From IMG/VR virus record IMGVR_UViG_3300023290_000107: a stretch of 4,439 nucleotides of DNA. The stretch is one strand, 5' to 3'. Shown in pieces: positions 1-4,439 of this stretch. This stretch comes from a virus (Duplodnaviria; Heunggongvirae; Uroviricota; Caudoviricetes). The notes beneath the pieces were generated by a model. The model was not told where the DNA came from and did not search any database. It was given only the letters and a program-made list of their open reading frames with translations. A program made the position numbers and the translations under genes. Position 1 is the first letter of the stretch, and each line of letters begins with the position of its first letter.

Positions 1-1796
1 AGCTGCCGACGCTGCGCCAGCGCCTGTTCCGCTGCGTGAGTATCCGTGAGAACGATGACGGCACGTATGCCATCACCGCCGTGCAGCATGTACCGGAGAA
101 AGAAGCCATCGTGGATAACGGGGCGCACTTTGACGGTGACCAGAGCGGCACGGTGAATGGTGTCACGCCGCCAGCAGTGCAGCACCTGACCGCCGAAGTC
201 ACTGCAGACAGCGGGGAATATCAGGTGCTGGCGCGATGGGACACACCGAAGGTGGTGAAGGGCGTGAGCTTCCTGCTCCGTCTGACCGTAACAGCGGACG
301 ACGGCAGTGAGCGACTGGTCAGCACGGCCCGGACGACGGAAACCACATACCGCTTCACGCAACTGGCGCTGGGGAACTACAGGCTGACAGTCCGGGCGGT
401 AAATGCCCGGGGGCAGCAGGGCGATCCGGCGTCGGTATCGTTCCGGATTGCCGCACCGGCAGCGCCGTCGCGGATTGAGCTGACGCCGGGCTATTTTCAG
501 ATAACCGCCACGCCGCATCTTGCGGTTTATGATCCGACGGTACAGTTTGAGTTCTGGTTCTCGGAAAAGCGGATTGCGGATATCAGGCAGGTTGAAACCA
601 CAGCACGCTATCTTGGCACGGCGCTGTACTGGATAGCCGCCAGTATCAATATCAAACCGGGCCATGATTATTATTTTTACGTTCGCAGTGTGAACACCGT
701 TGGCAAATCGGCATTCGTGGAGGCTGTCGGTCGGGCGAGCGATGATGCGGAAGGTTACCTGGATTTTTTCAAAGGAGAAATCGGGAAAACACATCTGGCC
801 CAGGAGTTGTGGACGCAGATTGATAACGGTCAGCTTGCGCCGGACCTGGCTGAAATCAGGACGTCCATTACGAATGTCAGCAATGAAATCACGCAGACCG
901 TCAATAAAAAACTGGAAGACCAGAGTGCGGCAATCCAGCAGATACAGAAAGTTCAGGTTGATACAAATAATAACCTGAACAGCATGTGGGCCGTGAAACT
1001 GCAGCAGATGAAGGACGGACGCCTTTATATTGCGGGTATCGGAGCCGGTATTGAGAATACGCCAGCAGGTATGCAGAGTCAGGTGCTTCTGGCTGCTGAC
1101 CGGATTGCGATGATTAATCCTGCGAATGGCAACACAAAGCCGATGTTTGTTGGTCAGGGCGATCAGATATTCATGAACGACGTGTTCCTGAAACGCCTGA
1201 CGGCTCCGACCATTACCAGCGGCGGTAATCCTCCGGCATTTTCCCTGACACCGGACGGGCGGCTGACGGCGAAAAATGCCGATATCAGCGGTAACGTGAA
1301 TGCGAACTCCGGGACGCTCAACAACGTCACGATTAACGAGAACTGTCGGGTTCTGGGAAAATTGTCCGCCAACCAGATTGAAGGCGATCTCGTTAAAACA
1401 GTGGGCAAAGCTTTCCCCCGGGACTCCCGTGCACCGGAACGGTGGCCATCAGGGACCATCACCGTCAGGGTTTATGACGATCAGCCGTTTGACCGGCAGA
1501 TTGTTATTCCGGCGGTGGCATTCAGCGGCGCTAAACATGAGCGGGAGAATAACGATATTTATTCGTCATGCCGCCTGATAGTACGGAAAAACGGTGCTGA
1601 AATTTATAACCGTACCGCGCTGGATAATACGCTGATTTACAGTGGTGTTATTGATATGCCAGCTGGTCGCGGCCACATGACGCTGGAGTTTTCGGTGTCA
1701 GCATGGCTGGTGAATAACTGGTATCCCACAGCAAGTATCAGCGATTTGCTGGTTGTGGTGATGAAGAAAGCCACCGCAGGCATCAGTATCAGCTGA
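1..1796 (+). CDS. J: Tail-tip host specificity protein J, C-terminal ~597 codons (5'-partial; reading frame begins at nt 3 and is open to the window edge; stop TGA at 1794-1796)
   Basis: Frame 3 is open from nt 3 to 1796 with no stop. The translation ([45 protein letters not shown]...[30 protein letters not shown]...DMPAGRG...) matches, from memory, long stretches of the C-terminal half of phage lambda J (gpJ, central tail fibre), including the fibronectin-III-like region and the C-terminal receptor-binding region. The track ORF 36..1796 is the same frame from an internal GTG. Gene order J-lom-stf is as in lambda. Confidence 0.93.
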
Positions 1797-1863: not shown

Positions 1864-1935
1864 ATGCGTAAAGTTTGTGCAGCCATTTTGTCCGCAGCCA
1901 TCTGTCTGGCCGTATCCGGTGCGCCTGCATGGGCG
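1864..1935 (+). other. Sec signal peptide of Lom (24 codons, predicted signal peptidase I cleavage after AWA)
   Basis: Positively charged n-region (RK), hydrophobic core [12 protein letters not shown], and an A-x-A (AWA) cleavage motif followed by SEQQ. Confidence 0.7.
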
Positions 1936-2463
1936 TCTGAGCAGCAGGCCACACTGAGCGCAGGGTATCTTCATGCCCGTACGAACGCTCCCGGCAGCGA
2001 TAATCTGAACGGGATTAACGTGAAATACCATTATGAGTTTACGGACACGCTGGGGCTGATTACGTCATTCAGTTATGCCAACGCTGAAGATGAGCAAAAA
2101 ACGCATTACAGCGATACCCGCTGGCATGAAGATTCCGTGCGTAACCGCTGGTTCAGCGTGATGGCGGGGCCGTCTGTGCGCGTGAATGAATGGTTCAGCG
2201 CGTATGCGATGGCGGGTGTGGCTTACAGCCGTGTGTCGACTTTCTCCGGGGATTATCTGCAGGTGACCGACAATACGGGGAAAACGCACGATGTGCTGAT
2301 CGGAAGTGATGACGGTCGCCACAGCAACACGTCTCTGGCGTGGGGGGCTGGCGTGCAGTTTAACCCGACCGAATCCGTGACCATTGACCTTGCTTATGAA
2401 GGTTCCGGTAGTGGCGACTGGCGAACGGATGCATTTATTGTTGGTATCGGATACCGTTTCTGA
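1864..2463 (+). CDS. lom: Outer membrane protein Lom (Ail/Lom/OmpX family 8-stranded beta-barrel), 199 aa, prophage-encoded moron
   Basis: Complete ORF ATG 1864 to TGA 2461-2463. N-terminal signal peptide [24 protein letters not shown] with AWA-S cleavage motif. Alternating aromatic/hydrophobic beta-strand pattern and a C-terminal aromatic residue (…IGYRF) typical of outer-membrane beta-barrels. Sequence recognised as lambda Lom; sits between J and stf as in lambda. Confidence 0.93.
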
Positions 2464-2614: not shown

Positions 2615-4439
2615 ATGACAGTAAAAATTTCTGGCGTGCTTAAAGATGGCACAGGAAAACCAGTACAGAACTGCACCATTGTGCTGAAGGCCAGACGAAC
2701 CAGCAGCACGGTGGTGGTGAACACGGTGGCCTCTGAAAATCCGGATGAAGCCGGACGTTACAGCATGGATGTTGAGCATGGTCAGTACAGCGTCACCCTG
2801 CTGGTTGAAGGTTTTCCGCCTTCACATGCCGGGACCATTACCGTCTATGAAGGTTCCAGACCAGGTACGCTGAATGATTTTCTCGGTGCCATGACGGAGG
2901 ATGATGTCCGACCGGAGGCACTGCGCCGCTTTGAGCAGATGGTGGAAGAGGTGTCACGTAACGCCTCCGCGGTTGCACAGAATACGGCAGCCGCGAAAAA
3001 ATCAGCCAGCGATGCCAGTGCATCAGCCAGCGAGGCGGCAACTCATGCAACCGATGCTGCAGCCTCAGCACGTGCCGCCAGCACGTCAGCCGGACAGGCC
3101 GCGTCGTCGGCTCAGTCAGCGTCTTCCAGCGCAGGAACGGCATCGACAAAGGCCCGTGAAGCAGCAAAAAGTGCTGCTGCTGCAGAGTCATCAAAAAGCG
3201 CGGCAGCTACCAGCGCCAGTGCCGCGAAAACGTCAGAAACGAATGCCGCAGCGTCACAACAATCAGCAGCCACTTCTGCATCCACCGCGACCACGAAAGC
3301 GTCAGAAGCAGCCACTTCAGCACGGGATGCGTCGGCTTCAAAAGAGGCGGCAAAATCATCAGAAACGAACGCATCATCAAGCGCCAGTAGTGCCGCTTCC
3401 TCGGCAACGGCGGCAGGAAATTCCGCGAAGGCGGCAAAAACGTCCGAGACGAACGCCAGGTCTTCTGAAACGGCAGCGGGACAGAGCGCCTCGGCTGCGG
3501 CAGGCTCAAAAACAGCGGCTGCATCATCTGCCAGCGCCGCGTCAACAAGTGCCGGGCAGGCCTCAGCCAGTGCCACCGCTGCCGGAAAGTCGGCAGAAAG
3601 TGCCGCATCGTCTGCTTCAACAGCCACAACGAAGGCTGGCGAAGCCACTGAACAGGCCAGCGCAGCAGCGAGGTCTGCTTCCGCAGCGAAGACATCCGAA
3701 ACGAACGCGAAAGCGTCGGAAACCAGCGCAGAATCCTCAAAAACGGCTGCCGCATCGTCCGCCAGTTCGGCGGCGTCATCGGCATCATCTGCGTCTGCTT
3801 CAAAAGATGAGGCGACCAGACAGGCGTCAGCAGCAAAGGGCAGCGCCACGACGGCATCCACGAAGGCGACAGAGGCAGCTGGCAGTGCGACGGCGGCAGC
3901 TCAGAGCAAAAGTACGGCGGAATCCGCGGCAACGCGCGCTGAGACAGCGGCAAAACGGGCAGAGGATATTGCATCCGCCGTGGCGCTTGAGGATGCGAGC
4001 ACGACGAAAAAGGGGATAGTACAGCTCAGCAGTGCGACTAACAGCACTTCCGAGTCACTGGCGGCAACGCCAAAAGCCGTTAAGGCCGCGTATGAGCTGG
4101 CTAACGGGAAATACACCGCACAGGATGCAACGACAGCACAGAAAGGGATAGTTCAGCTTAGCAACGCGACCAACAGCACATCTGAAATGCTGGCGGCAAC
4201 GCCAAAGTCGGTAAAGGCAGCCTATGACCTTGCTAACGGGAAATATACTGCTCAGGACGCTACGACAGCACAAAAAGGAATTGTCCAGCTCAGTAGTGCA
4301 ACCAACAGCACATCTGAAATGCTGGCGGCAACGCCAAAGTCGGTAAAGGCAGCCTATGACCTTGCTAACGGGAAATATACTGCTCAGGACGCTACGACAG
4401 CACAAAAAGGAATTGTCCAGCTCAGTAGTGCAACCAACA
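2615..4439 (+). CDS. stf: Side tail fibre protein Stf, N-terminal 608 codons (3'-partial; ORF runs off the window end with no stop)
   Basis: ATG at 2615; the frame (codon starts = 2 mod 3) was translated by hand and is open to nt 4439. The N-terminus MTVKISGVLKDGTGKPVQNCTIVLKARRTSSTVVVNTVASENPDEAGRYSMDVEHGQYSVTLLVEGFPPSHAGTITVYE... closely resembles the lambda Stf (orf-401) N-terminus as I recall it. It is followed by an Ala/Ser-rich fibrous shaft and KGIVQLSSATNSTSE.LAATPKAVK tail-fibre repeat motifs. Absent from the supplied ORF track, evidently because no stop lies within the window. Confidence 0.92.
   Translation, partial: MTVKISGVLKDGTGKPVQNCTIVLKARRTSSTVVVNTVASENPDEAGRYSMDVEHGQYSVTLLVEGFPPSHAGTITVYEGSRPGTLNDFLGAMTEDDVRPEALRRFEQMVEEVSRNASAVAQNTAAAKKSASDASASASEAATHATDAAASARAASTSAGQAASSAQSASSSAGTASTKAREAAKSAAAAESSKSAAATSASAAKTSETNAAASQQSAATSASTATTKASEAATSARDASASKEAAKSSETNASSSASSAASSATAAGNSAKAAKTSETNARSSETAAGQSASAAAGSKTAAASSASAASTSAGQASASATAAGKSAESAASSASTATTKAGEATEQASAAARSASAAKTSETNAKASETSAESSKTAAASSASSAASSASSASASKDEATRQASAAKGSATTASTKATEAAGSATAAAQSKSTAESAATRAETAAKRAEDIASAVALEDASTTKKGIVQLSSATNSTSESLAATPKAVKAAYELANGKYTAQDATTAQKGIVQLSNATNSTSEMLAATPKSVKAAYDLANGKYTAQDATTAQKGIVQLSSATNSTSEMLAATPKSVKAAYDLANGKYTAQDATTAQKGIVQLSSATN
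2960..4000 (+). repeat. Degenerate 42-bp (14-codon) periodic repeat region encoding the Ala/Ser/Thr-rich shaft of Stf (~24 units)
   Basis: The protein segments cleanly into 14-mers, e.g. KTSETNAAASQQSA / ATSASTATTKASEA / ATSARDASASKEAA / KSSETNASSSASSA / ASSATAAGNSAKAA / KTSETNARSSETAA, with nearly every unit ending in A-A or E-A. The recurring K-[TS]-S-E-T-N-A motif starts at nt 3227, 3353, 3437 and 3689; the spacings 126, 84 and 252 bp are all exact multiples of 42. Confidence 0.8.
4001..4439 (+). repeat. 132-bp tandem direct repeats within stf (about 3.3 copies in window; unit encodes a 44-aa phage tail-fibre repeat)
   Basis: Units begin at the K codons at 4010, 4142, 4274 and 4406 (the last truncated by the window end). 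The encoded unit is KGIVQLS[S/N]ATNSTSE[S/M]LAATPK[A/S]VKAAY[E/D]LANGKYTAQDATTAQ. Nucleotides 4169-4307 are identical to 4301-4439, so the sequence is perfectly 132-periodic from 4169 to the end. Copy 1 (4010-4141) is the most diverged. Confidence 0.9.

What the first reader, a model, noticed from the sequence alone, without database searches (positions are those of the whole stretch)
2960..4000. Strict 14-residue (42-bp) periodicity in the Ala/Ser-rich Stf shaft
The ~1 kb low-complexity region is not random. It parses into ~24 consecutive 14-residue units with a conserved pattern: small residues throughout, a K/S/T near positions 10-11, E/A at 12-13 and A at 14. The K-T-S-E-T-N-A anchors at nt 3227, 3353, 3437 and 3689 sit at exact multiples of 42 bp from one another. 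This implies a repeating structural module built by successive 42-bp duplications, consistent with a trimeric fibrous shaft. The number of units would set shaft length, giving a modular length-variation mechanism.
Basis: seen in the sequence. Interest (0 to 1): 0.4.

Follow-up and report, generated by a model that had tools for sequence, protein, structure and literature searches.

The report
Heptad coiled-coil shaft of Stf
The Ala/Ser-rich stretch of this prophage side tail fibre repeats every 7 residues, not 14, which marks it as the already described trimeric alpha-helical coiled-coil shaft ("PCoil"), whose length varies between phages in whole heptads.

Summary
The window is the J–lom–stf segment of a lambdoid E. 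coli prophage (98.9% identical to UTI89). But the fundamental period is 7 residues (21 bp), not 14 (42 bp). It forms 49 uninterrupted heptads, x-A-x-x-S-A-x. Fourier power sits at 7, 3.5 and 2.33 aa and at 21 and 10.5 bp, with none at 14 aa or 42 bp. A heptad-order shuffle finds no 14-aa super-period (p=0.26). Other motifs recur at odd heptad spacings. There are 24.5 "14-mers". No trace of DNA duplication remains: TRF finds nothing, and codon identity is the same in phase (0.254) and out of phase (0.251). In homologues the tract keeps one register and ranges from about 5 to 50 heptads. Length differences are multiples of 7, including the odd values 7 and 15. All of this is published. Ghosh et al. 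[quoted passage not shown] The 2025 Ur-lambda structure calls it the proximal coiled coil. Verdict: a real feature, parsed at the wrong period, already known, low interest.

The parts
2615..4439 (+). Side tail fibre (stf) ORF. 608 codons are held and it runs off the 3' end of the window. The full-length homologue in UTI89 is 1035 aa and is followed by a tail fibre assembly gene.
   Evidence: Translation. Pfam PF08400 E = 2.5e-70 and PF03406 E = 3.1e-54. 601 of 608 residues are identical to the UTI89 prophage Stf.
2615..2947 (+). Stf N-terminal collar domain plus linker (aa 1-111). This is the part that attaches the fibre to the tail tip.
   Evidence: PF08400 covers aa 1-134. Residues 1-94 match PDB 9e7m/9mgh, 'Tail fiber protein', E = 1.3e-47. 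Ur-lambda paper: collar domain residues 1-91, linker 92-101.
2948..3997 (+). Uninterrupted heptad tract. There are 50 heptads from aa 112, of which 49 (aa 119-461, nt 2969-3997) are Ala/Ser-rich. Consensus x-A-x-x-S-A-x. Predicted trimeric alpha-helical coiled-coil shaft about 51 nm long (343 aa). This is the feature in the finding.
   Evidence: Heptad stack. Column entropies: position 2 Ala 47/49, position 5 Ser 37/49, position 6 Ala 34/49. Autocorrelation and DFT. A 7-state Viterbi model gives one register over aa 111-457. 0 Pro, 10 Gly and 4 large hydrophobic residues in 343 aa. AF2 DSSP calls helix at 101-241, 258-361 and 396-462.
3221..3247 (+). Further copies start at 3347 (AAKSSET-NA), 3431 and 3683.
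   Evidence: Regex positions. Direct-repeat family D1, 69-77% nt identity to this copy. The 33-heptad variant P0091 joins the copy at aa 245 to the copy at aa 357.
3998..4439 (+). Phage_fiber_2 repeats (44 aa, 132 bp). This is a true DNA-level tandem array and corresponds to the hinge region of lambda Stf.
   Evidence: TRF: period 132, 3.3 copies, 88% matches, nt 4008-4439. PF03406 matches 4 stretches starting at aa 462. Four copies in UTI89, at aa 466, 510, 554 and 598.
36..1796 (+). C-terminal part of tail tip protein J (context).
   Evidence: Pfam Ig_J, Phage_Tail_Tip and Ig_GpJ_C. Annotated gpJ in UTI89.
1864..2463 (+). lom (Ail/Lom outer-membrane beta-barrel protein; context).
   Evidence: PF06316 E = 1.6e-123.

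Best explanation
Nt 2969-3997 encode the proximal shaft of a lambdoid side tail fibre. [quoted passage not shown]

The core is made of small residues. Heptad position 2 is almost always Ala (most likely the 'a' position). Position 5 is mostly Ser ('d'). Position 6 is mostly Ala, sometimes Glu ('e'). The remaining positions are polar or charged. Larger hydrophobic residues sit at positions 2, 5 and 6 only at the two ends of the tract, in the same register (RFEQMVE at the N end, RAEDIAS-AVALEDA at the C end).

The N-terminal collar domains of three chains dock on the tail tip. The coiled coil then projects the Phage_fiber_2 hinge and the distal receptor-binding part about 50 nm away from the tail.

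Any in-register join of two heptads gives a continuous coiled coil. Recombination or deletion inside the tract therefore yields functional fibres only when the change is a multiple of 7 residues. Shaft length is thus quantised in steps of one heptad (about 1 nm), and C-terminal modules can be exchanged across the tract.

Shown here: the period of 7, the single register, the residue pattern, the absence of a 14-aa super-period, the absence of DNA-level repeats, and the multiple-of-7 length classes. Taken from the literature: helicity, the trimeric state, and the role as proximal shaft. Inferred: the a/d assignment, the parallel in-register geometry for this particular protein, and selection as the filter on indels.
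For: - Identity of the gene: PF08400 plus PF03406, downstream of J and lom. 98.9% nt identity to the UTI89 prophage, where the gene is followed by a tail fibre assembly gene.
- Heptad signature: lag-7 z = 9.7. Protein DFT peaks at 7, 3.5 and 2.33 aa, the fundamental and harmonics expected of alpha-fibrous proteins, and none at 14.
- 49 heptads in one register.
- No Pro in the tract, and none in about 10,700 tract residues pooled from 61 diverse homologues. In that pool, position 2 is Ala 91%, position 5 Ser 73% and position 6 Ala 66%. Charged residues are 0.00 at position 2 and 0.06 at position 5. Gly is confined to positions 3, 4 and 7.
- AF2 assigns helix to the tract.
- Experimental literature on the homologous region after PF08400: alpha-helical CD with a cooperative, reversible transition near 49-52 C, trimer by SEC-MALLS/AUC, a rod in rotary-shadowing EM, the pattern 'Ala-X-X-Ala/Ser-X-X-Ser', and lengths differing by multiples of seven (PMC3368898).
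- Ur-lambda gpStf residues 102-393 are described as a trimeric proximal coiled coil fitted to cryo-ET density (PMC12617516).
- Length quantisation: 135 of 143 homologues with both flanking landmarks differ from the window by a multiple of 7. That is 8 of 14 distinct length classes (P = 2e-4), and the classes include the odd values 7 and 15 heptads.
- Variant junctions are in phase.
- Weak PDB sequence similarity of the tract to the coiled-coil shafts of T7 gp17 and T5 pb1 (E about 0.02).
Against: - No experimental atomic structure covers this tract. PDB matches stop at residue 94.
- The AF2 monomer model has low confidence (mean pLDDT 54) and folds back on itself with two breaks.
- The core lacks the Leu/Ile/Val residues of canonical coiled coils. 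Stability and exact geometry are therefore inferred from a shorter, more Glu-rich homologue rather than from this sequence.
- A few homologues carry out-of-phase indels (-29 and -18 aa), so the multiple-of-7 rule is not absolute. These are single-member clusters and could equally be assembly errors or defective prophage genes.
- The a/d assignment is not unique: a = position 6 with d = position 2 fits the spacing equally well.
Confidence: 0.88

Rival explanations
1. One reading: a 14-residue structural module, about 24 copies, generated by successive 42-bp tandem duplications, with the 14-mer as the unit of length variation.
For: The four (K)[TS]SETNA anchors are spaced by 6, 4 and 12 heptads, all even. 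Autocorrelation is high at lag 14 aa (z = 7.5) and at lag 42 bp (z = 4.6). The commonest length variant differs by 16 heptads, which is 8 x 14 aa.
Against: - Lag 7 and the odd multiples are as strong or stronger.
- There is no Fourier power at 14 aa or 42 bp.
- The heptad-order shuffle gives p = 0.26, and even vs odd lags give p = 0.79.
- Other motifs recur at odd spacings.
- The tract has 49 heptads, which is 24.5 units.
- Variants differing by 1, 7 and 15 heptads exist, and the -15 class occurs in 7 independent 50%-identity clusters.
- TRF finds no array.
- Synonymous codons are uncorrelated between repeats.
Confidence: 0.03
2. An intrinsically disordered, low-complexity Ala/Ser spacer with no defined structure. 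The periodicity would be a by-product of its history.
For: Extreme composition: Ala 132, Ser 84 and Thr 39 of 343 residues. No Pfam model covers it. AF2 confidence is low.
Against: - One heptad register is kept over 343 residues, and across homologues whose synonymous sites are scrambled.
- Pro is excluded completely, and Gly and charged residues are excluded position by position.
- Indels occur in multiples of 7.
- The homologous region is helical, cooperative in unfolding and trimeric by experiment, and is seen as a rod in EM and cryo-ET.
Confidence: 0.03
3. A helical but non-canonical assembly. Examples would be a fold-back antiparallel bundle, as in the AF2/AF3 monomer-like models, or a different strand number, with the Ala/Ser stripe packing Alacoil-style rather than as a parallel trimer.
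For: AF2 folds the chain into three helices, with breaks at 242-257 and 362-395. [quoted passage not shown] Ala at every seventh residue is the hallmark of closely packed antiparallel 'Alacoil' pairs (own knowledge). The distal part of lambda Stf is described as six intertwined chains.
Against: - The Ur-lambda authors state that the folded AF3 model is inconsistent with cryo-ET, which shows an extended proximal rod. Three linkers run from three collar domains into one bundle.
- The AF2 breaks have pLDDT below 50 and coincide with no change in the heptad pattern.
- The rod length measured for the homologue fits an extended coil.
Confidence: 0.05
4. The sequence is shaped by an overlapping gene in another frame. 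Candidates are the 372-aa ORF in the +1-offset frame and the 249- and 255-aa antisense ORFs. Lambda's record even annotates 'orf206b' antisense to stf.
For: Long ORFs at 2901..4019 (+), 3112..3861 (-) and 3207..3974 (-). One antisense frame has 1 stop against 8.7 expected under a synonymous shuffle, 0 of 2000 shuffles, and the same holds in lambda and Gifsy-1. orf206b is annotated in J02459.
Against: - The +1-offset frame and the orf206b frame are open by codon composition alone (shuffle means 0.26 and 1.0-1.8 stops).
- In the remaining frame, the only possible stop in an Ala/Ser/Thr tract is C-T|A. CTA is under-represented throughout the locus (J 4/22, lom 0/7.3, tract 1/10).
- The products are Leu/Pro/Arg/Trp-rich or Arg/Gln/Pro-rich with no family match sought or expected.
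- The heptad pattern is explained fully by the sense-strand protein.
Confidence: 0.01

Closest known systems
PCoil domain of EHEC prophage collagen-like tail fibre proteins (EPclA/EPclB; Ghosh et al. 2012, PLoS One, PMC3368898)
   Same: Same position, immediately after the PF08400 N-terminal domain. Same Ala/Ser-rich low-complexity composition. Same seven-residue A-x-x-A/S-x-x-S pattern, which is positions 6-2-5 of my numbering. Length differences between proteins are multiples of seven. The Stx2a_WGPS4 fibre fetched here carries such a tract (about 18 heptads).
   Different: The window's tract is much longer: 49 heptads, against roughly 16 nm (about 110-145 residues) in EPclA. It is poorer in Glu and much more regular, whereas the paper calls the periodicity 'loose'. 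It is followed by Phage_fiber_2 repeats and a lambda-type distal domain rather than a collagen triple helix.
Proximal coiled-coil domain of Ur-lambda gpStf, residues 102-393 (Sci Adv 2025, PMC12617516; PDB 9e7m/9mgh for the collar)
   Same: Orthologous gene. The N-domain is about 85% identical, and many heptads are identical to lambda's. The architecture is the same: collar, linker, coiled coil, Phage_fiber_2 hinge, distal part.
   Different: The window's tract is longer. Landmark-to-landmark, lambda has roughly 35 heptads and the window 49. The window also has 4 hinge repeats (3.3 copies lie within the window; 4 in the UTI89 homologue) where lambda has one. The paper models the coil with AF3 fitted to cryo-ET density and does not analyse heptads.
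Trimeric coiled-coil shafts of other phage fibres: T7 gp17 proximal half-fibre, T5 pb1, T4 fibritin, P22 gp26 needle
   Same: They work the same way, as a three-stranded alpha-helical rod that spaces a receptor-binding tip from the virion. There is marginal sequence similarity to T7 gp17 residues 172-267 and T5 pb1 residues 33-158 (E about 0.02).
   Different: Homology is not established. As far as I know (own knowledge), fibritin and gp26 use conventional hydrophobic a/d residues and contain breaks or inserted loops. Here the core is Ala/Ser and the register is unbroken for 343 residues.
Alanine-core coiled coils: Lpp-56 alanine-zipper trimer, Ala-rich hymenopteran silk coiled coils, tropomyosin Ala clusters (own knowledge)
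   Same: Small residues at core positions. Like tropomyosin, a long heptad run without discontinuities.
   Different: Unrelated proteins. None, to my knowledge, combines Ala at 'a' with Ser at 'd' over about 50 heptads.
Beta-structured fibre repeats with longer periods, e.g. the adenovirus fibre shaft 15-residue repeat (own knowledge)
   Same: Trimeric viral fibre shafts whose length is set by the number of repeats.
   Different: Those repeats need Gly/Pro turns and alternating hydrophobic residues. The tract has no Pro, a dominant 3.5-residue Fourier line and no 14-15-residue line.

Membership tests
Lambdoid side tail fibre (Stf; PF08400-type prophage tail fibre) | N-terminal phage_tail_N (PF08400) collar domain | tested here: met
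   E = 2.5e-70, aa 1-134, full model length. Residues 1-94 match the Ur-lambda collar chain 9e7m, E = 1.3e-47.
Lambdoid side tail fibre (Stf; PF08400-type prophage tail fibre) | Gene order J - lom - stf - tfa in a lambdoid tail module | tested here: met
   J C-terminus and Ail/Lom lie upstream in the window. The tail fibre assembly gene follows the full-length gene in the 98.9%-identical UTI89 prophage. Lambda has the same order. The tfa gene itself lies outside the window.
Lambdoid side tail fibre (Stf; PF08400-type prophage tail fibre) | Phage_fiber_2 (PF03406) repeat(s) after the shaft | tested here: met
   4 matched stretches starting at aa 462, E = 3.1e-54. 132-bp tandem array.
PCoil / Stf proximal trimeric coiled coil | Low-complexity Ala/Ser-rich region directly after PF08400 with a seven-residue A-x-x-A/S-x-x-S pattern | tested here: met
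   49 heptads x-A-x-x-S-A-x. Ala 47/49 at position 2, Ser 37/49 at position 5, Ala 34/49 at position 6. Lag-7 z = 9.7. Definition taken from PMC3368898.
PCoil / Stf proximal trimeric coiled coil | Length differences between family members are multiples of seven residues | tested here: met
   135 of 143 proteins and 8 of 14 length classes are 0 mod 7 (P = 2e-4). Variant junctions are in phase. Exceptions: single-member clusters with -29 and -18 aa.
PCoil / Stf proximal trimeric coiled coil | Alpha-helical secondary structure | tested here: inconclusive
   AF2 DSSP calls helix over 101-241, 258-361 and 396-462, but mean pLDDT is 54. There is no Pro in 343 aa. Experimental CD exists only for a homologue.
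PCoil / Stf proximal trimeric coiled coil | Parallel three-stranded oligomer | not testable with these tools
   Only monomer prediction is available here. Trimer evidence comes from SEC-MALLS/AUC on EPclA and from cryo-EM/ET of Ur-lambda.
Canonical heptad coiled coil | Fourier lines at 7, 7/2 and 7/3 residues with a continuous register | tested here: met
   Power 7.7, 14.0 and 9.5 against 99th-percentile null values of about 2. Single Viterbi segment over aa 111-457.
Canonical heptad coiled coil | Large hydrophobic residues (Leu/Ile/Val) at the a and d positions | tested here: not met
   Only 4 LIVMFWY residues in 343 aa. The core positions are Ala and Ser. It is therefore a small-residue-core variant. 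Hydrophobic residues appear at positions 2, 5 and 6 only at the tract ends.
   DFT at 14 aa gives 0.39 (null 0.79) and at 42 bp 0.21 (null 0.56). Heptad-order shuffle p = 0.26. Even vs odd lags p = 0.79. 24.5 units.
DNA tandem repeat array formed by recent duplication (VNTR-like) | Nucleotide-level similarity between units beyond what the protein pattern requires | tested here: not met
   No TRF array in 2960-4000 even at minimum score 30. Same-codon fraction 0.254 in phase vs 0.251 out of phase. Best direct repeats are 35 nt at 78% identity or less. The neighbouring 132-bp array does meet this feature.

The most novel reading that the evidence does not exclude
The Ala(a)/Ser(d)/Ala(e) tract may be a distinct structural class of coiled coil. 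It would be an unusually thin three-helix rod with a polar core, possibly hydrated, running about 50 heptads without a single discontinuity. Its mechanical properties and its tolerance of any in-register crossover would make it a universal splice adaptor for exchanging receptor-binding modules among lambdoid phages. No atomic structure of this tract exists (the PDB stops at residue 94), so a non-canonical geometry is not excluded.
Probability: 0.12. Interest if true: 0.45.

Novelty: already known. Interest (0 to 1): 0.12.

Why it matters
The result matters mainly as a correction. The repeat is the heptad of a coiled coil, so the sequence should be read as a helical rod and not as a chain of 14-residue modules or a product of 42-bp slippage.

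There is some practical value. Lambda Stf chimeras are used to retarget phage-derived delivery particles (PMC11338833). The rule that natural variants join in register, in whole heptads of about 1 nm each, is a usable design constraint for choosing fusion points and tuning fibre length.

None of this is new in principle. The seven-residue pattern, the trimeric helical nature and the multiple-of-seven length rule were published in 2012, and the coiled-coil assignment for lambda itself in 2025.

Tried and rejected
- **Naive phase tracker.** It followed the most Ala-rich column in sliding windows and reported many false 'phase changes', because positions 2 and 6 are both Ala. I replaced it with a 7-state Viterbi model.
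- **tblastn against phages.** It matched only aa 1-115, because BLAST's low-complexity filter masks the tract. It was useless for comparing tracts, so I used HMMER-based protein searches instead.
- **Higher-order repeats of 2-8 heptads, and heptad lags 1-30.** Nothing survives multiple testing. The best results are k = 8 with p = 0.033 uncorrected, and lag 11 with z = 2.46 against a family-wise limit of 3.16.
- **Hidden antisense gene.** Suggested by stop depletion in one antisense frame. Rejected after finding locus-wide CTA avoidance, which is the only route to a stop in that frame of an Ala/Ser/Thr tract.
- **The Nature 2024 Stf-chimera paper, searched for Stf fusion points inside the tract.** The main text gives the insertion point only for gpJ.
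- **AF2 monomer model.** Confidence is too low, and the chain folds back on itself, so I did not use it for a fold search.
- **PDB sequence search with the tract alone.** Only marginal hits, E about 0.02.
- **Landmark regexes.** They mis-place a few proteins. In P0071 the tract is fused directly into a Phage_fiber_2 repeat, and P0131 gives an early false match. I therefore do not take those non-multiple-of-7 classes at face value.
Full report
**What the window is.** ORF listing and translation show three forward genes. These are the C-terminal 586 codons of a J-type tail tip protein (nt 36-1796), an Ail/Lom gene (1864-2463), and an ORF that starts at nt 2615 and runs off the 3' end, with 608 codons held.
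- Pfam assigns the third ORF phage_tail_N (PF08400, aa 1-134, E = 2.5e-70) and four Phage_fiber_2 repeats (PF03406, from aa 462). Nothing covers the stretch in between.
- The whole window is 98.9% identical to a prophage in E. coli UTI89, APEC O1 and other strains. Related sequence occurs in 5038 of 5426 complete E. coli genomes.
- In UTI89 the gene is 1035 codons long and is followed by a tail fibre assembly gene.
- So this is a lambdoid side tail fibre gene (stf), and the finding concerns its Ala/Ser-rich middle part.

**Checking the observation.** The region is periodic far beyond chance.
- Against 2000 residue shuffles, protein self-identity is z = 9.7 at lag 7, 7.5 at lag 14, 8.7 at lag 21, 8.8 at lag 28, 8.3 at lag 35, 7.5 at lag 42 and 9.4 at lag 49. 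Other lags sit at or below zero. The family-wise 95% limit is 3.2.
- The fundamental period is therefore 7, and 14 is only one of its multiples.
- Stacked in sevens, aa 119-461 (nt 2969-3997) form 49 consecutive heptads with no phase break and consensus x-A-x-x-S-A-x. Position 2 is Ala in 47 of 49, position 5 is Ser in 37, and position 6 is Ala in 34.
- 343 residues is 24.5 fourteen-mers.

**Is there anything at 14 beyond 7?** Four tests say no.
1. Exact Fourier power in the protein is 7.7 at period 7, 14.0 at 3.5 and 9.5 at 2.33, but 0.39 at period 14 (shuffle mean 0.79). In the DNA it is 4.0 at 21 bp and 5.1 at 10.5 bp (0 of 500 codon shuffles reach these), but 0.21 at 42 bp (shuffle mean 0.56; 89% of shuffles are at least as high).
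2. Permuting the order of heptads keeps period 7 and destroys any super-period. Against that null, the 14-column model explains no more than expected (p = 0.26). No super-period from 2 to 8 heptads survives correction.
3. Mean identity is 0.405 at even heptad lags and 0.412 at odd lags (p = 0.79). No lag from 1 to 30 heptads passes the family-wise threshold.
4. Other recurring motifs break a 14-register. TAxTKA recurs at gaps of 7, 16 and 11 heptads, and SA[AS]SSA at 13, 10 and 8. The even spacing of the three SETNA gaps has chance probability 1/8.

**Were the repeats made by 42-bp duplications?** The DNA shows no sign of it.
- Tandem Repeats Finder reports nothing in the tract even at minimum score 30. 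It does find the neighbouring 132-bp array at 4008-4439, with 3.3 copies at 88% matches.
- The best direct repeats are 35 nt at 61-78% identity, with spacings of 21, 42, 84, 105, 126 and 147 bp. These are multiples of 21 of either parity.
- Among identical residues, the fraction using the same codon is 0.254 at in-phase lags and 0.251 at other lags.
- The near-invariant Ala uses all four codons (GCA 17, GCG 15, GCC 12, GCT 3). The conserved Ser uses both TCN (27) and AGY (10) codons.
- The periodicity is thus maintained at the protein level. If duplication built the tract, its trace at silent sites has been erased.

**What it is.** A spectrum with lines at 7, 3.5 and 2.33 residues, an unbroken register, no proline and almost no large side chains is what an alpha-helical coiled coil with a small-residue core looks like. 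The tract has 0 Pro, 10 Gly and 4 LIVMFWY residues in 343. The literature says the same.
- Ghosh et al. 2012 (PMC3368898) studied prophage tail fibre proteins with the same PF08400 N-domain. [quoted passage not shown] They obtained high PCoils, Marcoil and MultiCoil scores favouring a trimer.
- The same paper showed alpha-helical CD with a cooperative, largely reversible transition near 49-52 C, a trimer by SEC-MALLS/AUC, and a rod in rotary-shadowing EM. [quoted passage not shown]
- Their pattern is my positions 6-2-5.
- The 2025 Ur-lambda cryo-EM/ET study (PMC12617516) divides lambda gpStf into collar (1-91), linker (92-101), proximal coiled coil (102-393), hinge (394-422) and distal part, three chains per fibre. 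Only the collar has an atomic model, consistent with the PDB search here, where residues 1-94 match 9e7m/9mgh and nothing beyond.
- My AF2 monomer run gives helix over 101-241, 258-361 and 396-462. Confidence is low (mean pLDDT 54) and the chain folds back at two low-confidence breaks. The Ur-lambda authors report the same artefact for AF3.

**Register and core.** I pooled about 1530 heptads from 61 diverse homologues (one per 50%-identity cluster).
- Position 2 is Ala 91% (Val 5%), position 5 is Ser 73% and position 6 is Ala 66% (Glu 18%).
- Charged residues are absent from position 2 and rare at position 5.
- Gly is tolerated only at positions 3, 4 and 7, and Pro never occurs.
- At both ends of the window's tract, larger hydrophobic residues fall on the same positions. 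RFEQMVE has F at 2, M at 5 and V at 6. RAEDIAS has I at 5, and AVALEDA has V at 2.
- I infer a = position 2 and d = position 5, with position 6 as the flanking e. The alternative a = 6, d = 2 cannot be excluded without a structure.

**Length variation.**
- Among 120 close homologues and 150 representatives found with the N-domain alone, a 7-state Viterbi model shows that the tract always begins at about aa 111. It nearly always keeps a single register. It spans about 5, 8, 9, 12, 17, 18, 20, 23, 25, 28, 33-34 or 49-50 heptads.
- Measured between fixed landmarks, 135 of 143 proteins differ from the window by a multiple of 7. Eight of 14 distinct length classes are multiples of 7 (P = 2e-4): 0, 2, 4, 7, 15, 16, 30 and 32 heptads shorter.
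- The -15 class is represented by seven independent clusters, and -7 and -1 also occur. The quantum is therefore one heptad, not two. Parity shows no bias (5 even of 7, p = 0.23).
- Junctions are in phase. For example, P0091 joins AAKSSET (aa 245) to AAKTSET (aa 357).
- Two single-member clusters carry -29 and -18 aa, so the rule is strong but not absolute. These may be defective genes or assembly errors.
- At 0.1485 nm per residue, the window's tract would be about 51 nm long, and the common 33-34-heptad forms about 34-35 nm.

**How it most likely works.** Three collar domains bind the tail tip. Their linkers converge into the parallel three-helix rod encoded by nt 2948-3997. The rod holds the Phage_fiber_2 hinge and the distal receptor-binding region away from the tail. 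Every heptad is structurally equivalent, so any in-register crossover or deletion preserves a continuous rod. Shaft length and the attached distal modules can therefore change freely as long as the change is a multiple of 7 residues. The period, register, residue pattern and length classes are shown here. Helicity, trimer state and role come from the two papers. The a/d assignment and selection as the filter on indels are inferences.

**Comparison and novelty.** This is a member of the known Stf/PCoil family, and every defining feature I could test is met. It departs from textbook coiled coils in lacking Leu/Ile/Val at the core, as the 2012 paper already remarked. Compared with the published examples, it is longer and far more regular: 49 perfect heptads, against a periodicity described as 'loose'. 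Functionally it resembles the coiled-coil shafts of T7 gp17 and T5 pb1, to which the tract has only marginal similarity (E about 0.02), as well as T4 fibritin. It is not a beta-type repeat shaft. The finding is real but was parsed at twice the true period. Its structural meaning and the modular length rule are already in the literature.

**Side observations.**
- The tract is open in three other frames: ORFs 2901..4019 (+), 3112..3861 (-) and 3207..3974 (-).
- The middle one is the frame that lambda's 1982 record annotates as orf206b. It and the forward one are open by composition alone.
- The third has 1 stop against 8.7 expected under a synonymous shuffle, unlike the neighbouring genes. In lambda it has 0 against 4.6, and in Gifsy-1 0 against 3.4. 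In an Ala/Ser/Thr tract its only possible stop is C-T|A, and CTA is scarce throughout the locus (J 4/22, lom 0/7.3, tract 1/10). So this is a compositional by-product.

Noticed in passing
window 4008-4439 (+): A true DNA-level tandem array: period 132 bp (44 aa), 3.3 copies within the window, 88% matches. It encodes Phage_fiber_2 (PF03406) repeats. The UTI89 homologue has four copies (aa 466, 510, 554, 598), whereas lambda has one, in its 'hinge'. Copy number here, unlike the heptad tract, looks like recent duplication and may change hinge length or flexibility.
   Followed up: partly
window 2901-4019 (+), 3112-3861 (-), 3207-3974 (-), 2838-3194 (-): Long ORFs in three alternative frames across the heptad tract. 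3112..3861 (-) is the frame annotated as 'orf206b' in the lambda record J02459. The frame of 3207..3974 (-) has 1 stop against about 9 expected under synonymous shuffling (also 0 vs 4.6 in lambda and 0 vs 3.4 in Gifsy-1), while neighbouring genes show no depletion. This is explained by locus-wide CTA under-representation, because C-T|A is the only possible stop there. TpA overall is 5 observed against 32.5 expected in the tract.
   Followed up: yes
P0151 (486 aa), homologue: After about 28 heptads, the protein switches into the Arg/Gln/Pro-rich alternative frame ('...AAKNQKP TRKLARQ QQRAAKL...') and continues for about 180 residues. This is a frameshifted stf whose aberrant product is long only because the alternative frame lacks stops.
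   Followed up: no
P0077 and P0070: Two single-member clusters carry out-of-phase deletions in the tract: -29 aa (between two AAG motifs) and -18 aa (near the C-terminal end). They would introduce a coiled-coil discontinuity. It is unknown whether these fibres are functional, whether the genes are decaying prophage copies, or whether these are assembly errors.
   Followed up: partly
P0068, P0077, P0116: Source annotations of close Stf homologues include 'PPE-repeat protein' and 'short-chain fatty acid transporter'. These are evident mis-annotations, probably driven by the low-complexity Ala/Ser tract.
   Followed up: no
window 2927-2947 and 3956-3997 (aa 105-111 and 448-461): The only large hydrophobic residues near the tract sit at heptad positions 2, 5 and 6 at its two ends (RFEQMVE; RAEDIAS AVALEDA). 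They may act as register-setting caps or trigger sites for an otherwise Ala/Ser core.
   Followed up: partly
P0150 (774 aa): A diverged homologue whose tract is dominated by alternating AAK-x-SET / NAK-x-S[EQ]T heptads. It looks like a two-heptad unit to the eye, yet it shows no 14-aa Fourier power either (P14 = 0.2, measured on aa 176-260 of its tract). After 32 heptads it continues into an unrelated C-terminal domain with no Phage_fiber_2 hinge.
   Followed up: partly
window 2969-3997 vs PDB 7boz (T7 gp17 172-267) and 8hqz (T5 pb1 33-158): Marginal sequence similarity (E about 0.02) between the tract and the coiled-coil shaft segments of two unrelated phage fibres. It may reflect convergent small-residue coiled-coil composition rather than homology.
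   Followed up: no
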